A stretch of 32,000 nucleotides of DNA from assembly GCA_024720975.1 (NCBI GenBank), contig JANJXX010000007.1, forward strand, positions 3,816-35,815, in the 5' to 3' direction. Below the pieces are notes generated by a model. It searched no databases. It was given only the letters and a program-made list of their open reading frames with translations, and was not told the DNA's origin. The DNA is from Thermoproteota archaeon. GTDB taxonomy: Archaea > Asgardarchaeota > Njordarchaeia > Njordarchaeales > Panguiarchaeaceae. How positions within the stretch are numbered: position 1 is the stretch's first letter; each line of letters begins with the position of its first letter. The position numbers and the translations under genes are program-made. This document shows positions 17,356-23,986 of the stretch, one piece after another.

Positions 17356-17441
17356 GGGCCGGTTGCCTAGAGGTTATGGCGTCCCGCTTACGAGGTTCCT
17401 GAGAAACGGGAAGGTCGGCGGTTCGAGTCCGCCCCGGCCCA
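17356..17441 (+). tRNA. tRNA-Val (anticodon UAC) with 13-nt canonical intron (37/38)
   Basis: The cloverleaf is GGGCCGG..CCGGCCC-A, with anticodon stem TCCCG/CGGGA and loop CTTACG[intron 17393-17405]A. The BHB has a central helix 17387-17390 with 17400-17403 (C-G, U-A, U.G, A-U) and 3-nt bulges CGA and AAA. Confidence 0.85.
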
Positions 17442-17661: not shown

Positions 17662-18498
17662 ATGGTAATAAGGGCAATAGCAGCTTTTGATTCATTTGGA
17701 AACGAGCTCTTCTACGAGGCTTACGCATCATTTACTCCTAATTTTCAACTCCTATCCAGGATATTACTTGGAATGCGAGAGCATTTACCAAAAGAATACG
17801 ACACAGTTAATATGGGCCAGTACAAAATCGCATTAACCATCTCGTCAGACTTAGTACTACTCATTTTAGCTGATAGAGTTAATGGCGACCAGGAGCTCGA
17901 AAAAGTTGTGCGATTCTTACATGAATCTGCGAGAGAGATTTTTAGTGGAAGTGCTAAAACCCAAGAAGACCAGATAGAAAAATTCCGCGAAAAGACCTAT
18001 GAAGCTATTGCTATGTTACCAGTAAAGTGCACTCTAACTGGCTATGGTGGAGTAGGGAAAACTACTATTGTGCGTCTGGTAGCCCGAGGAGAAAGACTTA
18101 CTAAACATATACCCACAATTCTAGCGGATGTTGAAGAGATAAAGATCGAGGGTATAGATCCCTACAAGGTGACATTATTTACCGTAGCTGGACAGCCCCA
18201 ATACTGGCGTACTTGGATGCTCACTACAGAAGGATCAGATTTCGTGATGTTAGTTACAGACTCAACTTACGAGGATGTAGAAAGGCTTCAAAAAGAAATC
18301 ATTCCGTACTTAATGAAGATAACTCCTTATTCACGATTTATCATAATAGCAAATAAGCAAGATTTACCTAACGCACTGCCGCCCTCTGTTATAGAGGAGA
18401 CCTGCGGCATACCTTCGTTTCCCTTGGTGGCGATACGAGATGATGCCAAGGAGAAGTTTGTTGAAATATTGGCTACAATGATAAGAGAGCTACCTTAG
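17662..18498 (+). CDS. Small Ras/Arf-superfamily GTPase with an N-terminal roadblock/longin-like domain
   Basis: The C-terminal half carries G1 GYGGVGKT, G3-like TVAGQ and G4 NKQD. The N-terminal 115 aa or so shows a beta-beta-alpha-beta-beta-beta-alpha pattern (IRAIAAFDSFGNELFYE...QYKIALTISSDLVLLILAD...). That fold is inferred only. Confidence 0.7.
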   Translation: MVIRAIAAFDSFGNELFYEAYASFTPNFQLLSRILLGMREHLPKEYDTVNMGQYKIALTISSDLVLLILADRVNGDQELEKVVRFLHESAREIFSGSAKTQEDQIEKFREKTYEAIAMLPVKCTLTGYGGVGKTTIVRLVARGERLTKHIPTILADVEEIKIEGIDPYKVTLFTVAGQPQYWRTWMLTTEGSDFVMLVTDSTYEDVERLQKEIIPYLMKITPYSRFIIIANKQDLPNALPPSVIEETCGIPSFPLVAIRDDAKEKFVEILATMIRELP

Positions 18499-22063: not shown

Positions 22064-22159
22064 GCCGGGGTTGCCGAGCGGTACGGCGTCGGCCTGCTAA
22101 CCAAAAGGCTGATAGCCGATGGCGCTAGCGCCTCGCGGGTTCAAATCCCGCCCCCGGCA
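22064..22159 (+). tRNA. tRNA-Ser (anticodon GCU), class II, with 14-nt canonical intron
   Basis: The acceptor is GCCGGGG/CCCCGGC-A and the anticodon stem TCGGC/GCCGA, with loop CTGCTA[intron 22100-22113]A. It has a long variable arm TGGCGCTAGCGCCTC and T-arm GCGGGTTCAAATCCCGC. Confidence 0.88.
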
Positions 22160-22162
22160 TAA

Positions 22163-22221
22163 TGATAATGATGATGGTTCAACCGGCTGAGAAATGATGA
22201 TAGCATGTCTTGCTGAAGTTT
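22163..22221 (+). ncRNA. C/D box sRNA
   Basis: It reads ATGATGA (C, 22168-22174), a 12-nt guide TGGTTCAACCGG, CTGA (D', 22187-22190), GAA, ATGATGA (C', 22194-22200), a 12-nt guide TAGCATGTCTTG, then CTGA (D, 22213-22216). This is textbook archaeal architecture, and it lies between two tRNAs. Confidence 0.85.
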
Positions 22222-22252: not shown

Positions 22253-22338
22253 GGGCCGGTAGCTCAGCCCGGTAGTCCTCATCCGAAAGCGTCCGGCTCT
22301 TAACCGGATGGTCGCGGGTTCAAATCCCGCCCGGCCCA
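22253..22338 (+). tRNA. tRNA-Lys (anticodon CUU) with 12-nt non-canonical intron in the D-arm
   Basis: The acceptor is GGGCCGG/CCGGCCC-A, the anticodon stem-loop TCCGG-CTCTTAA-CCGGA, and the T-arm GCGGGTTCAAATCCCGC. The D-arm closes (GCTC/GAGC) only after 22276-22287 (TCCTCATCCGAA) is removed. Confidence 0.8.
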
Positions 22339-22439: not shown

Positions 22440-22447
22440 TTTATATA
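22440..22447 (+). promoter_or_regulatory. TATA box for the permuted 5S precursor
   Basis: TTTATATA lies about 50 nt upstream of the leader helix. The expected TSS is near 22470-22475. Confidence 0.5.
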
Positions 22448-22497
22448 CTCTGATAATTTAACAAGAGTTAGCTGTATAGCAGGCCAACGGCGCTAGA

Positions 22498-22663
22498 AAA
22501 CTCGCATCGGGACCGAAAGCTAAGCCGCGCCACGCCGACCTGAGTAGTGTGGGGGAGACCCCACGCGAAAGGGCGGTGCTGTCCGTTCCTAGAGGAGCGG
22601 ACGGCCATAGGGCGCGGGAAACGCCCGATCCCATTCCGAACTCGGAAATCTCGATGCGAGTTT
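22498..22663 (+). other. 5S precursor processing structure: leader/trailer helix with BHB geometry
   Basis: Leader 22498-22512 pairs with trailer 22649-22663 (15 bp, one G.U). The central 4 bp are 22513-22516 (CCGA) with 22642-22645 (UCGG). The bulges are AAG at 22517-22519 and AAA at 22646-22648, on opposite strands. Confidence 0.7.
22519..22647 (+). rRNA. 5S rRNA, circularly permuted gene (3' part, hairpin linker, 5' part)
   Basis: 22519-22588 carries the 3' strands of helices III and II, helix V, the loop E AGUA/GAA motif, helix IV with a GAGA loop D, and the 3' strand of helix I. 22589-22594 is the CUAGAG linker. 22595-22647 carries the 5' strand of helix I, helix II GGCGCGG (complementary to CCGCGCC at 22525-22531) and loop C CCCAUUCCGAACUCGGAA. 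Confidence 0.8.
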
Positions 22664-22676
22664 GACTCCTTTAGAA

Positions 22677-22684
22677 TTCTTTTT
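22677..22684 (+). terminator. T-rich tract after the 5S trailer
   Basis: TTCTTTTT lies 14 nt after the trailer helix. Confidence 0.45.
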
Positions 22685-22720
22685 GAATTGTTACTGGTTG
22701 ATCTATGTGACGGTAAAGAT

Positions 22721-23404
22721 ATGACTACCCCTACTGAGGTCTATGTGTTAAAACTTAAACCTCTTCTTGATCGAGGAGCTATTAGTATTTTACTAAACAA
22801 GGGTGACTCTGAAGTCCTCTTTATAGGAAATGAAAGTTATAAGCACATTCTCCAAACAATGTTATCGTTCACCTTACAAACAAAAAGTAGGATATCCAAA
22901 GAATATATAAGCGAGCTTACACGGCGTGGTATCCGATTAGATTTTGGTGAGGTTGATTTCTATCTGCTAAACTTCTCAATGATGAATCTTAAAGTTTACT
23001 TGGCAACATATGGAGACGTTTTAATATCTTGTGTCTTTGCTAATAACTTTCCGTCAGTCAATGAATTTATTGATATTGTGCGTGATTTAACTACTACTAA
23101 GGATATCGGCAAACACGGAATCAACAAAGAGGAAATAAAGAATCTAAAGGCTCTAATTTTGAGCGCTAGAAGAAGCGCCAGTTCAGGTATTAAAGAAGAG
23201 CTTTTGCGTAATTTAAACGACATTCGCGAGTTTCTTGAAAGGTTGCAGGATCAGGCTTTGGAACCATATTTAGCATCCATAAAAAGGGTATTGCTAATTC
23301 TAGAACAGAAAACCGAGATTACAGACGAATTAAAGTTAAAGTTAAGAAGAATATTATTATTGCTACTAAAAAGTATATCCAAAAGGTTTAAGGAAGAGAT
23401 TTAA
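22721..23404 (+). CDS. Hypothetical protein, possibly with a roadblock/LC7-like N-domain
   Basis: The ATG at 22721 (MTTPTEVYVLKLKPLL...) is the first start outside the 5S gene. The ORF-track start at 22547 reads through the rRNA. The fold guess rests only on alternating beta patterns. Confidence 0.55.
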   Translation: MTTPTEVYVLKLKPLLDRGAISILLNKGDSEVLFIGNESYKHILQTMLSFTLQTKSRISKEYISELTRRGIRLDFGEVDFYLLNFSMMNLKVYLATYGDVLISCVFANNFPSVNEFIDIVRDLTTTKDIGKHGINKEEIKNLKALILSARRSASSGIKEELLRNLNDIREFLERLQDQALEPYLASIKRVLLILEQKTEITDELKLKLRRILLLLLKSISKRFKEEI

Positions 23405-23416
23405 CTAACCAAAGAT

Positions 23417-23986
23417 TTGGCGGTAAGGATGATAGTGGGTAATTCAGAGGACGATAGAATAGCCATAGTTACACTAGTAGATGAAGATAGGTTGGGTGCT
23501 GTAATAGGGTCAAAAGGGAGAGTTGAAAAATATATTGAAAACAAGCTAAATGTCGATATAAAGATTGATACACAAAAGGGTAAGGTACTAATAATAACCG
23601 AGAGAAACAACATAGAGAACGGTTTAAGAGCGAAAATGATCGTAGAAGCTATTGCTCATGGGATTTCCTTTGATCATGCAAAAAAACTTATTGATAATCC
23701 AGACTATGTTCTTGAAGTCTTAGACATAAGTGAGTACGCTCGTAATAAAAGTGACATGATAAGAATCAAAGCCCGTCTTATCGGTCAAGGCGGTAAAATT
23801 AAAACCCTAATAGAAGACGAACTAAGTGTGAAAATATCCATCAGAGACAAGTATGTAGCGATACTGGGTAAGCATACTGATGTCAATATCGCTAAGGATG
23901 TTATTCAAATGATCTGTAGAGGAAGTAAATATGGTCGCGCTTTGAAGAGGATTAATGACTACAGGCTTCTACAGGACATATACTAG
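23417..23986 (+). CDS. Two-KH-domain RNA-binding protein (archaeal Dim2/Pno1-like)
   Basis: It has two GXXG KH motifs, IGSKGRVEKYIE and IGQGGKIKTLIE. Its size is about 185 aa. The start could be TTG at 23417 or ATG at 23429. Confidence 0.75.
   Translation: MAVRMIVGNSEDDRIAIVTLVDEDRLGAVIGSKGRVEKYIENKLNVDIKIDTQKGKVLIITERNNIENGLRAKMIVEAIAHGISFDHAKKLIDNPDYVLEVLDISEYARNKSDMIRIKARLIGQGGKIKTLIEDELSVKISIRDKYVAILGKHTDVNIAKDVIQMICRGSKYGRALKRINDYRLLQDIY

What the first reader, a model, noticed from the sequence alone, without database searches (positions are those of the whole stretch)
22498..22663. Circularly permuted 5S rRNA gene flanked by a bulge-helix-bulge motif that would rebuild loop C by circularisation
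Every hallmark of a 5S rRNA is present, but in the wrong order. The first block, 22519-22588, reads GCUAAGCCGCGCC (3' strands of helices III and II), then helix V (22533-22540 with 22572-22578). Next come loop E UGAGUA / GAAAGG, helix IV GUGUGGGG-GAGA-CCCCACGC (22547-22566) and the 3' strand of helix I, GCUGUCCGUUC. The second block, 22595-22647, reads GAGCGGACGGC, the 5' strand of helix I. It pairs over 11-12 bp with 22578-22589, including 2 G.U pairs. It then carries GGCGCGG (22611-22617, a perfect complement of 22525-22531) and loop C CCCAUUCCGAACUCGGAA. The conventional 3' and 5' termini are covalently joined by CUAGAG (22589-22594), a C-G pair closing a UAGA tetraloop. Leader 22498-22512 and trailer 22649-22663 are complementary over 15 bp. 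They are followed by a 4-bp helix (22513-22516 with 22642-22645), and 3-nt bulges on opposite strands flank that helix (AAG 22517-22519, AAA 22646-22648). This is the outer-helix, central 4 bp, bulge arrangement that the archaeal splicing endonuclease cleaves. Cutting after the second bulge nucleotide on each strand and ligating would join ...CCGAACUCGGAA(22647) to G(22519)CUAAGCCGCGCC. That recreates the conserved CCGAAC.CGGAAG.UAAGC loop C/helix III sequence exactly and yields a 129-nt circle. The inner helix is weak, so this is an hBH-type relaxed motif. The UCGG used in the precursor central helix must later re-pair with UUCC in helix III, which implies a structural switch. Permuted tRNAs, a circularised permuted SRP RNA and a permuted 23S rRNA are known in archaea. 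I am not aware of a described BHB-processed permuted 5S rRNA.
Basis: partly seen in the sequence, partly recalled or inferred. Interest (0 to 1): 0.95.

Follow-up and report, generated by a model that had tools for sequence, protein, structure and literature searches.

The report
Circularly permuted archaeal 5S rRNA gene
In a clade of hot-environment archaea related to Njordarchaeia, the 5S ribosomal RNA gene is written back-to-front (3' half, then 5' half). It is flanked by a conserved splice-type motif that should cut it out and join its ends, probably into a circular 5S rRNA, which has not been described for any cellular ribosome.

Summary
Window 22519-22588 matches Rfam 5S (RF00001) positions 52-120, and 22597-22647 matches positions 1-51. 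The halves meet exactly at 51|52, the predicted ligation point A22647|G22519. I built a 5S model only from ordinary 5S genes of other phyla, permuted in silico. It hits 22519-22647 full length at 79.7 bits (E about 1e-18).

The same arrangement occurs in seven lineages from independent assemblies. The former termini are closed by different small loops, and helices I, II, IV and V show compensatory changes. The leader/trailer stem has diverged in sequence but stays paired (8 of 12 pairs changed on both sides). The adjacent 4-bp helix and the two 3-nt bulges keep fixed lengths, and their geometry matches the window's own tRNA introns.

The best explanation is excision by the tRNA splicing endonuclease and ligation into a circle of about 129 nt. 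That processing is inferred, not observed, and I could not check for a collinear 5S copy elsewhere in the genome.

The organism is labelled Korarchaeota but groups with Njordarchaeia-like (Asgard) MAGs. No description was found in the literature I could search. Standard annotation would miss this gene.

The parts
22440..22447 (+). TATA-like box (TTTATATA), the presumed archaeal promoter of the 5S transcription unit
   Evidence: Read from the sequence. An A/T-rich TATA-like box lies 40-66 nt upstream of the processing stem in all seven lineages. Inferred, not tested.
22498..22512 (+). Leader strand of the outer processing helix (h), pairs with 22649-22663
   Evidence: 15-nt inverted repeat. In the proximal 12 bp, 8 pairs show changes on both sides and 95.8% of cells are paired across 8 sequences.
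22513..22516 (+). 5' strand (CCGA) of the 4-bp central helix H of the bulge-helix-bulge (BHB) motif; pairs with UCGG 22642-22645 and copies the 5' strand of helix III (CCGA 22625-22628)
   Evidence: 100% paired in 8 sequences. The only change is A to G in L010, which keeps a G.U pair.
22517..22519 (+). 5' three-nucleotide bulge (AAG); predicted cut between A22518 and G22519, so G22519 is the first nucleotide of the excised 5S
   Evidence: Always 3 nt (AAG or AGG) in all lineages. G22519 aligns to RF00001 position 52. There is no adjacent inner helix, so the motif is the relaxed hBH / bulge-helix-loop type.
22519..22588 (+). 3' half of 5S rRNA: loop B side, 3' strand of helix II, helix V, loop E, helix IV, 3' strand of helix I
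   Evidence: RF00001 positions 52-120, 26.0 bits, E 4.7e-4 in truncated mode. Compensatory changes in helices II, IV and V.
22589..22594 (+). Closure of helix I where conventional 5S has its termini: C22589-G22594 pair around the UAGA loop 22590-22593
   Evidence: Other lineages have UCUCA, UUCG, UUUU or UUUG loops here, with compensatory changes in the extended helix I.
22595..22647 (+). 5' half of 5S rRNA: 5' strand of helix I, loop A, 5' strand of helix II, helix III and loop C, ending at the AA bulge
   Evidence: 22597-22647 matches RF00001 positions 1-51, 40.1 bits, E 6.8e-8.
22642..22645 (+). UCGG: 3' strand of central helix H in the precursor, and 3' strand of helix III in mature 5S (a partner switch)
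22646..22648 (+). 3' three-nucleotide bulge (AAA), flanked by H and the outer helix; predicted cut between A22647 and A22648
   Evidence: AAA in all 8 sequences. A22647 aligns to RF00001 position 51.
22649..22663 (+). Trailer strand of the outer processing helix
22680..22684 (+). T5 run, the presumed archaeal transcription terminator
   Evidence: Read from the sequence. T-runs follow the trailer within 0-25 nt in other lineages. Inferred.
22519..22647 (+). Predicted excised and circularised 5S rRNA, 129 nt
   Evidence: Exact extent of the full-length hit of the in-silico-permuted 5S model R1: 79.7 bits, E about 1e-18. Length.

Best explanation
**What it is.** This is the functional 5S rRNA gene of the organism, encoded as a circular permutation. 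The order is 3' half (RF00001 positions 52-120), then a small hairpin loop closing helix I where the normal termini would be, then the 5' half (positions 1-51).

**Transcription (inferred).** It is transcribed from its own TATA-type promoter as a precursor of roughly 200 nt.

**Shown by comparative analysis.** An 11-15 bp leader/trailer helix stacks on a 4-bp helix. That helix forms between a leader CCGA and the UCGG that later belongs to helix III. A 3-nt bulge lies 3' of each strand of the 4-bp helix. This is a relaxed bulge-helix-bulge (hBH) motif.

**Processing (inferred).**

- The tRNA splicing endonuclease cuts after the second nucleotide of each bulge: A22518|G22519 and A22647|A22648.
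- The RtcB ligase joins A22647 to G22519, restoring ...CUCGGAA-GCUAAGCC....
- UCGG then re-pairs with the internal CCGA 22625-22628 to form helix III.
- The product is a covalently closed 129-nt 5S rRNA.
- It most likely stays circular in the ribosome, because helix I is capped by variable, stable tetraloops with no conserved cleavage signal.
For: **It is a 5S.**

- The two halves meet exactly at RF00001 positions 51|52.
- Model R1 was built only from collinear 5S genes of Micrarchaeota, Bathyarchaeia, Woesearchaeota, Nanoarchaeota and bacteria, permuted in silico at 51|52. It hits window 22519-22647 full length at 79.7 bits. It hits the seven related lineages at 62-80 bits. Real collinear 5S genes reach only 43-46 bits with R1.
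- The re-permuted RNA folds into the three-arm 5S shape, z = -4.4.

**It is conserved and constrained.**

- Seven lineages from NCBI, ENA, JGI and Logan assemblies carry it. Their neighbouring KH-domain protein is 51-73% identical to the window's.
- Compensatory changes occur in helices I, II, IV and V, and 98.7% of cells are paired against 31-46% in slid controls.

**The processing stem is selected for structure.**

- 8 of 12 pairs changed on both sides. 0 of 500 shuffles reach the observed covariation score.
- The 4-bp helix and the bulge lengths do not vary.

**The geometry fits the splicing endonuclease.**

- It equals that of the window's own introns. In tRNA-Val 17356-17441 the order is stem, then CUUA:UGAG, then bulges CG|A and AA|A.
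- In tRNA-Lys 22253-22338 the only excision that restores the D stem cuts 2 nt 3' of each strand of a CGGU/UCCG helix.
- These introns also lack an inner helix, and one sits at a non-canonical position. That argues for an endonuclease with relaxed specificity.

**The predicted junction is right.** The junction nucleotide G is what follows ...CTCGGAA in 120 of 120 collinear 5S genes sharing that 24-mer.

**The motif is energetically accessible.** The BHB conformer is the minimum-free-energy fold in 3 of 8 sequences at 37 C and 4 of 8 at 75 C. It is within 2.8 kcal/mol in the rest.

**There is a precedent.** The permuted SRP RNA of Thermoproteus is cut at a leader/trailer BHB by the splicing endonuclease and circularised (PMC4731332).
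Against: - There are no RNA data. Cleavage, ligation and circularity are all inferred.
- The 5' cut site is not in a closed 3-nt bulge. No inner helix h' exists next to it, so the motif is relaxed.
- In the window's own sequence the BHB conformer is not the predicted minimum-free-energy fold (2.4 kcal/mol above it at 37 C). It also competes with native helix III for UCGG.
- I could not check the endonuclease type or the presence of RtcB in this genome.
- I could not scan any whole genome of the clade for a collinear 5S copy. Only the window plus 132 kb of loci from the clade and from unplaced relatives were checked.
- Recent literature states that archaeal 5S rRNAs, unlike 16S and 23S, are not processed by circularisation (PMC12918454). 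This would be an exception.
Confidence: 0.7

Rival explanations
1. The 5S is permuted but never ligated. The mature RNA is linear, with its ends at positions 51/52. The ends are held together by the leader/trailer helix, which is either retained as an extra arm or trimmed by other nucleases. This would resemble the brown-algal mitochondrial 5S, which is permuted in the final product.
For: The gene-level permutation and the conserved leader/trailer helix fit a purely structural clamp equally well. Organelle 5S rRNAs function as linear permuted molecules (PMC4267664). The BHB lacks an inner helix.
Against: A clamp does not explain three things. The 4-bp helix and both 3-nt bulges are invariant in length while the clamp sequence drifts. 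The leader strand copies helix III and sequesters UCGG. Cutting by the BHB rule leaves exactly one copy of every 5S nucleotide, with the consensus G at position 52. Archaea routinely ligate BHB-cut ends (PMC4731332, PMC7758197).
Confidence: 0.15
2. BHB excision and circularisation occur, but the circle is only an intermediate. It is reopened in the helix I loop to give a conventional linear 5S. This would parallel the permuted tRNAs of Cyanidioschyzon and the circular pre-16S/23S intermediates.
For: Circular pre-rRNA intermediates that are re-linearised are the textbook archaeal pathway (PMC7758197; PMC12918454). The helix I loops are small and U-rich.
Against: No sequence or length is conserved in the helix I loop (UAGA, UCUCA, UUCG, UUUU, UUUG). 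Several are stable C(UUCG)G-type caps on a helix extended to 9-12 bp, which looks like a permanent closure. No enzyme is known for such a cut.
Confidence: 0.12
3. The locus is a rearranged 5S pseudogene or an assembly artefact, and a normal 5S gene elsewhere serves the ribosome.
For: No whole genome of the clade could be scanned. RF00001 does not call this locus at its gathering score.
Against: Seven lineages from independent assemblers and sample sets carry the same arrangement with unique flanks. The 5S core is nearly invariant, with compensatory changes in four helices and in the processing stem. That pattern indicates purifying selection on structure. The locus has a promoter-like box and a terminator-like T-run and sits in a conserved tRNA / C/D sRNA cluster. 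No collinear 5S was found in the window or in 132 kb of loci from the clade and from unplaced relatives.
Confidence: 0.03

Closest known systems
Circularly permuted SRP RNA gene of Thermoproteus tenax / T. uzoniensis (Plagens et al. 2015, PMC4731332)
   Same: A permuted gene for an essential structured RNA. Leader and trailer pair into a BHB at the new termini. That BHB is cut by the tRNA splicing endonuclease and, by inference, ligated by RtcB into a functional circular RNA. The host is rich in tRNA introns and has a relaxed endonuclease. A C/D box sRNA gene lies nearby (here 22168-22216).
   Different: A different RNA (5S rRNA, a ribosome component) and a different lineage (Njordarchaeia-like, not Thermoproteales). 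Here the central helix borrows one strand of a helix of the mature RNA, which implies a partner switch. Circularisation was shown experimentally there and is only inferred here.
BHB processing and circularisation of archaeal 16S/23S pre-rRNA, including the permuted 23S of Pyrococcus furiosus (PMC7758197) and circular 23S in ribosomes (PMC12918454)
   Same: A leader/trailer processing stem carrying a BHB, excision by EndA, and ligation to a circle. In some archaea the circular or permuted form is the one in the ribosome.
   Different: In those cases the genes are collinear and permutation arises only at the RNA level. 5S rRNA is explicitly described as not following this route. Here the gene itself is permuted and needs ligation to restore continuity.
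Permuted mitochondrial 5S rRNA of brown algae and other stramenopiles (Valach et al. 2014, PMC4267664; Rfam mtPerm-5S)
   Same: It is a 5S rRNA whose helix I is a closed hairpin and whose termini lie elsewhere.
   Different: It is organellar. The ends lie at the junction of the alpha and gamma domains, not in helix III. The final product is linear and permuted. There is no BHB, no leader/trailer stem and no ligation. The relaxed-threshold Rfam search of the locus listed no family other than RF00001 and one CRISPR repeat.
Circularly permuted tRNA genes of Cyanidioschyzon merolae (Soma et al. 2007, cited in PMC4267664)
   Same: The gene order is 3' half then 5' half. A BHB-like motif lies at the junction of leader and trailer. 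Maturation goes through a circular RNA intermediate.
   Different: It is eukaryotic and nuclear. The circle is reopened by RNase P and tRNase Z at the canonical ends. The RNA is a tRNA, not an rRNA.
Engineered circularly permuted 5S rRNA fused into 23S rRNA in E. coli (recalled from memory, Huang et al. 2020; not checked here)
   Same: It shows that ribosomes tolerate a 5S whose native ends are joined by a loop.
   Different: It is a synthetic bacterial construct, covalently part of 23S. It is not a natural free circle.

Membership tests
5S rRNA (Rfam RF00001) | The sequence, in genomic order, reaches the family gathering score (38 bits) | tested here: not met
   No RF00001 hit at gathering score in the window. 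There are two forced full-model alignments of 25.9 and 24.9 bits, each good in only one half.
5S rRNA (Rfam RF00001) | All model positions are present once, in circularly permuted order | tested here: met
   22597-22647 matches positions 1-51 (40.1 bits). 22519-22587 matches positions 52-120 (26.0 bits). They are contiguous at 51|52. The permuted model R1 scores 79.7 bits full length at 22519-22647.
5S rRNA (Rfam RF00001) | Helices I-V are supported by base pairing and covariation | tested here: met
   98.7% of cells are paired. Changes on both sides occur in helices I, II, IV and V. Slid controls give 31-46% paired. Helix III pairs never vary, so they are uninformative.
5S rRNA (Rfam RF00001) | It is the 5S actually incorporated in the ribosome (the only or the expressed copy) | not testable with these tools
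   No whole genome or RNA data were reachable. No other 5S was found in the window plus 132 kb of loci from the clade and from unplaced relatives.
Bulge-helix-bulge substrates of the archaeal splicing endonuclease | A central helix of exactly 4 bp | tested here: met
   CCGA 22513-16 pairs with UCGG 22642-45. It is 100% paired in 8 sequences, and the one A to G change keeps a G.U pair.
Bulge-helix-bulge substrates of the archaeal splicing endonuclease | At least one 3-nt bulge closed by helices on both sides, with the bulge 3' of the central-helix strand | tested here: met
   AAA 22646-48 lies between H and the trailer helix in all 8 sequences. The topology is the same as in the window's tRNA-Val and tRNA-Lys introns.
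Bulge-helix-bulge substrates of the archaeal splicing endonuclease | A second 3-nt bulge on the opposite strand, closed by an inner helix h' (the strict hBHBh' form) | tested here: not met
   Three unpaired nucleotides (AAG or AGG) are always present. However, no complementarity exists between 22520 onward and the bases before 22642. At best the single pair G22519-C22622 (mature fold; G22519-C22624 in the 70 C constrained fold) forms across a 17-19 nt loop. The motif is therefore the relaxed hBH / bulge-helix-loop form.
Bulge-helix-bulge substrates of the archaeal splicing endonuclease | An outer helix h | tested here: met
   10-15 bp (10 bp in L140, 15 bp in the window). 8 of 12 pairs have compensatory changes.
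Bulge-helix-bulge substrates of the archaeal splicing endonuclease | Cleavage by EndA and ligation by RtcB | not testable with these tools
   This needs enzyme assays or RNA-seq. Neither gene lies in the window, and my protein searches were exhausted.
Permuted non-coding RNA genes matured through a circular RNA (Thermoproteus SRP RNA type) | The gene order is 3' part then 5' part, with the canonical ends joined by a short loop and a BHB at the new ends | tested here: met
Permuted non-coding RNA genes matured through a circular RNA (Thermoproteus SRP RNA type) | A circular mature RNA is detected | not testable with these tools
   No transcriptome access.
Organelle permuted 5S (mtPerm-5S) | The termini lie at the alpha/gamma junction, helix I is replaced by a 5' hairpin, and the product is linear | tested here: not met
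   Here the breakpoint is at positions 51|52 in helix III. The relaxed-threshold Rfam search of the locus listed no match to that family. The family is described in PMC4267664.

The most novel reading that the evidence does not exclude
The ribosomes of this Njordarchaeia-like (Asgard-affiliated) clade contain a covalently closed, circular 5S rRNA. It is made by the tRNA splicing machinery from a permuted gene that is the only 5S gene in the genome. If so, 5S joins 16S and 23S as a substrate of BHB circularisation. It would be the first natural cytosolic ribosome with an end-less 5S, and the permutation would be a shared derived character useful for placing this disputed clade.
Probability: 0.45. 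Interest if true: 0.9.

Novelty: new variant of a known kind. Interest (0 to 1): 0.86.

Why it matters
- **rRNA processing.** 5S rRNA is the one rRNA thought not to use the archaeal cut-and-circularise pathway. This gene cannot give a continuous 5S without that pathway, so the reach of the tRNA splicing machinery would extend to all three rRNAs.
- **First cellular case.** It would be the first permuted 5S gene outside organelles, and possibly the first circular 5S in a ribosome. That gives a natural test of how much 5S topology matters for assembly of the central protuberance.
- **Annotation.** Rfam-based annotation reports no 5S for these genomes. MAGs of this clade will therefore be marked as lacking 5S, and may be downgraded under quality standards that require all three rRNA genes.
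- **Phylogeny.** The permutation is a rare genomic change shared by at least seven lineages whose placement (Korarchaeota versus Asgard/Njordarchaeia) is disputed. Its distribution could serve as a phylogenetic marker.

Tried and rejected
**Searches that gave little or nothing**

- The genome-contig scan with CCCGATCCCATTNCGAACTCGGAA was badly chosen. The hits were reused as the source of model R1 and for the junction-nucleotide count.
- The metagenome scan with a permutation-specific pattern found only three contigs, from two lineages already known.
- Loci around EF-1alpha of further relatives (L134-L138) and around the next-best KH homologues (L141-L143) carry no 5S of either kind. How far the permutation extends beyond the seven lineages is therefore unknown.
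- The supplements of the Panguiarchaeum paper are not held. The exact taxonomic assignment of the assemblies rests on source names and EF-1alpha identity only.
- Literature searches for permuted or circular 5S in archaea, Korarchaeum or Njordarchaeia found nothing.

**Ideas tested and set aside**

- Origin by tandem duplication. The window's leader 22481-22499 resembles the start of the 5' half, but only at shuffle p of about 0.05. The resemblance is absent from the other lineages, and the trailer shows nothing. It is not evidence.
- The plain minimum-free-energy fold of the window precursor does not show the BHB. It pairs leader GGGA with UCCC of loop C. That alternative is rejected because L001 has GAGA there, which cannot pair with UCCC but pairs perfectly with its own trailer.
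- Assembly artefact and pseudogene readings were rejected, as set out under the rival explanations.
Full report
**Observation**

- A 15-nt inverted repeat, 22498-22512 with 22649-22663, has 14 Watson-Crick pairs and one G.U.
- It brackets CCGA (22513-16), AAG (22517-19), a 70-nt block, a 6-nt hairpin closure, a 53-nt block ending in UCGG (22642-45), and AAA (22646-48).
- Rfam finds only tRNAs in the window at gathering thresholds.
- At relaxed threshold RF00001 gives two adjacent hits. 22476-22587 is good only in the 3' half of the model. 22597-22702 is good only in the 5' half.
- Searched on its own, 22597-22647 aligns to model positions 1-51 (40.1 bits, E 6.8e-8; above the 38-bit gathering score by itself).
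- Searched on its own, 22519-22587 aligns to positions 52-120 (26.0 bits, E 4.7e-4).
- The two halves therefore contain each 5S position once and meet exactly at 51|52.
- The re-permuted 123-mer folds into the three-arm 5S shape.

**An independent full-length test**

- I took collinear 5S genes from loci fetched: Micrarchaeota, Bathyarchaeia, Woesearchaeota, Nanoarchaeota and 12 bacteria.
- I cut them in silico at 51|52, joined the native ends with GAAA, and built covariance model R1.
- R1 hits the genomic window at exactly 22519-22647, full length, at 79.7 bits and E about 1e-18.
- Real collinear 5S genes score only 43-46 bits with R1.
- One caveat applies. The training genes were selected for sharing a 24-mer of loop C with the window, which inflates the score somewhat. 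The remaining roughly 95 positions are independent.

**Who carries it**

- The neighbouring KH-domain (Pno1-like) protein is 99% identical to a protein of a MAG labelled Candidatus Korarchaeota (GCA_038842575.1).
- However, EF-1alpha of the window belongs to a tight cluster at 80-94% identity. One member of that cluster is labelled Candidatus Njordarchaeota. The next relatives, at 65-69%, include proteins named Njordarchaeia/Njordarchaeales.
- A 2025 study argues that the Korarchaeota affinity of Njordarchaeia and Panguiarchaeum is an artefact and places them in Asgard archaea (PMC12411855).
- I therefore treat the organism as Njordarchaeia-like. The exact family was not determined.

**Conservation**

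- Synteny (KH gene, tRNA cluster), a metagenome pattern scan and an nhmmer profile found the same permuted gene in seven lineages, represented by eight distinct sequences.
- These are W/L008, L001, L002 (the same sequence occurs in L003-L007 and L131), L132, L133/L009, L010, L139 and L140.
- They come from NCBI, ENA, JGI and Logan assemblies.
- KH-protein identity to the window runs from 73% down to 51-54%.
- In every lineage the former termini are closed by a hairpin. The loops are UAGA, UCUCA, UUCG, UUUU or UUUG, on a helix I of 9-12 bp.
- On alignment A3 the 5S helices are 98.7% paired, against 31-46% for slid controls. Changes on both sides occur in helices I, II, IV and V.
- This excludes an assembly artefact and a decaying pseudogene.
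- RF00001 at gathering score finds no 5S in 132 kb of loci, most of them from this clade. Routine annotation will therefore call 5S absent.

**The flanking motif**

- The leader/trailer helix has almost no conserved sequence but stays paired.
- Of its 12 pairs, 8 changed on both sides and 95.8% of cells are paired. No shuffle out of 500 reaches the observed covariation score.
- By contrast, the next 4 bp (CCGA:UCGG) and the lengths of the two unpaired triplets never change. The triplets are AAG or AGG on the 5' strand and AAA on the 3' strand. The single substitution in the 4-bp helix keeps a G.U pair.
- On each strand the order, read 5' to 3', is helix, 4-bp strand, 3-nt bulge.

The window's own introns give the same order.

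- In tRNA-Val(UAC) 17356-17441, the anticodon stem is followed by CUUA paired to intron UGAG, with bulges CG|A and AA|A.
- In tRNA-Lys(CUU) 22253-22338, the only excision that restores the GCUC/GAGC D stem removes UCCUCAUCCGAA. That puts both cuts 2 nt 3' of the strands of a CGGU/UCCG helix (my reading of the sequences).
- These introns are 12-14 nt long with essentially no inner helix, and one lies in the D arm. This implies an endonuclease of relaxed specificity (inference from established knowledge of archaeal EndA families; see PMC4731332).

Applying the same rule to the 5S precursor cuts at A22518|G22519 and A22647|A22648.

- Ligation gives ...CUCGGAA-GCUAAGCC....
- All 120 collinear 5S genes that share the preceding 24-mer continue with G, and four continue with GCTAAGC exactly.

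**Limits of the motif**

- UCGG 22642-45 is also the 3' strand of helix III, whose mature partner is CCGA 22625-28 (structure line).
- The leader CCGA is thus a decoy copy of the 5' strand of helix III. A partner switch must follow cleavage.
- Constrained folding puts the BHB conformer 2.4 kcal/mol above the window's minimum-free-energy fold at 37 C, and 1.0-1.3 kcal/mol above it at 70-85 C (1.2 at 75 C). It is level with the native helix III conformer.
- Across the eight sequences, the BHB conformer is the minimum-free-energy fold itself in 3 at 37 C and 4 at 75 C, and within 2.8 kcal/mol otherwise.
- The alternative pairing in the window's minimum-free-energy fold (leader GGGA with loop C UCCC) is refuted by L001. 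Its GAGA cannot pair there but pairs with its own trailer.

**Mechanism**

What is shown:

- a permuted, conserved, structurally constrained 5S gene;
- a covarying processing stem with an invariant 4-bp helix and 3-nt bulges.

What is inferred:

- transcription from TTTATATA 22440-47 to the T-run 22680-84;
- cleavage by the splicing endonuclease;
- RtcB ligation into a 129-nt circle (124-129 nt in the other lineages);
- re-pairing of helix III.

I think the circle is the mature form. The helix I caps vary freely and include stable UUCG loops, with no conserved cleavage signal. Re-linearisation cannot be excluded.

The main rival is a linear, unligated permuted 5S held together by the stem. It does not explain the fixed BHB geometry or the exact single-copy junction.

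**Comparison with known systems**

- The closest system is the permuted SRP RNA of Thermoproteus. It has a leader/trailer BHB, is cut by the splicing endonuclease, forms a functional circle, and even has a nearby C/D box sRNA gene. The window has a C/D sRNA at 22168-22216.
- Archaeal 16S and 23S rRNAs are circularised at BHBs, and some stay circular or permuted in ribosomes. Their genes, however, are collinear. A 2026 paper states that 5S rRNAs do not follow this route.
- Permuted 5S rRNAs are known only from stramenopile mitochondria. Those have a different breakpoint, no BHB and a linear product.
- Full-text searches for permuted or circular 5S in archaea, Korarchaeum or Njordarchaeia returned nothing. 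The library lacks most subscription-journal papers, so absence is not proof.

**Verdict**

This is a real and strongly supported new variant of a known kind: a BHB-dependent permuted RNA gene, here for 5S rRNA. Open points are the RNA-level evidence for cleavage and circularity, the absence of a collinear copy, and the phylogenetic extent. My one genome-wide scan was wasted on too general a pattern.

Noticed in passing
window 22168-22216 (+): A textbook archaeal C/D box sRNA lies between tRNA-Ser and tRNA-Lys. Its boxes are C ATGATGA 22168-74, D' CTGA 22187-90, C' ATGATGA 22194-22200 and D CTGA 22213-16, with two 12-nt guides (TGGTTCAACCGG and TAGCATGTCTTG). Sub-threshold Rfam C/D hits occur at the syntenic spot in L008, L002 and L001. 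Targets were not identified. C/D sRNA genes have been noted next to split or permuted RNA genes before (PMC4731332).
   Followed up: partly
window 22253-22338 (+): tRNA-Lys(CUU) carries a 12-nt intron (UCCUCAUCCGAA) inside the D arm, between positions 22 and 23. This is a non-canonical position. ARAGORN misses this gene entirely, and Rfam finds it with an 18-nt insert.
   Followed up: partly
window 22064-22159 and 17356-17441 (+): tRNA-Ser(GCU) and tRNA-Val(UAC) have 14- and 13-nt introns at 37/38 with almost no inner helix. ARAGORN mislabels them as tRNA-??? and tRNA-Stop. In lineage L010 the tRNA-Gly next to the 5S also has an intron that the window's copy lacks.
   Followed up: partly
window 22481-22499 versus 22602-22621: The leader segment GGCCA-ACGGCGCTAGAAA resembles the start of the 5' half, GGCCATAGGGCGCGGGAAA. 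This could be a relic of an origin by tandem duplication. However, shuffle p is only about 0.05 and the resemblance is absent from the other lineages.
   Followed up: yes
window 23417-23986 and all related loci: The KH-domain Pno1/Dim2-like gene (named a ribosomal RNA assembly protein by some sources) lies within about 1 kb of the permuted 5S in all seven lineages. This holds although the 5S-tRNA cluster sits upstream of it in some lineages and downstream in others.
   Followed up: no
whole window; L135, L139, L140: The taxonomic label conflicts with affinity. The MAG is named Candidatus Korarchaeota, but its EF-1alpha groups with proteins named Njordarchaeota/Njordarchaeia. An Arf/Ras/Roc-family small GTPase, a typical Asgard signature protein, is encoded at 17662-18498.
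   Followed up: partly
window 22547-23404 (+): The mechanical ORF list gives a 285-aa GTG ORF that starts inside the 5S gene. The real gene is most likely the 227-aa protein starting at ATG 22721, as called in L008. It has no Pfam match and is specific to this clade.
   Followed up: partly
L062 2482-2505 and 2630-2653: One bacterial MAG contig from the pattern scan carries two matches 148 nt apart. This looks like tandem 5S genes, the kind of arrangement from which a permuted gene could arise by loss of the outer halves.
   Followed up: no
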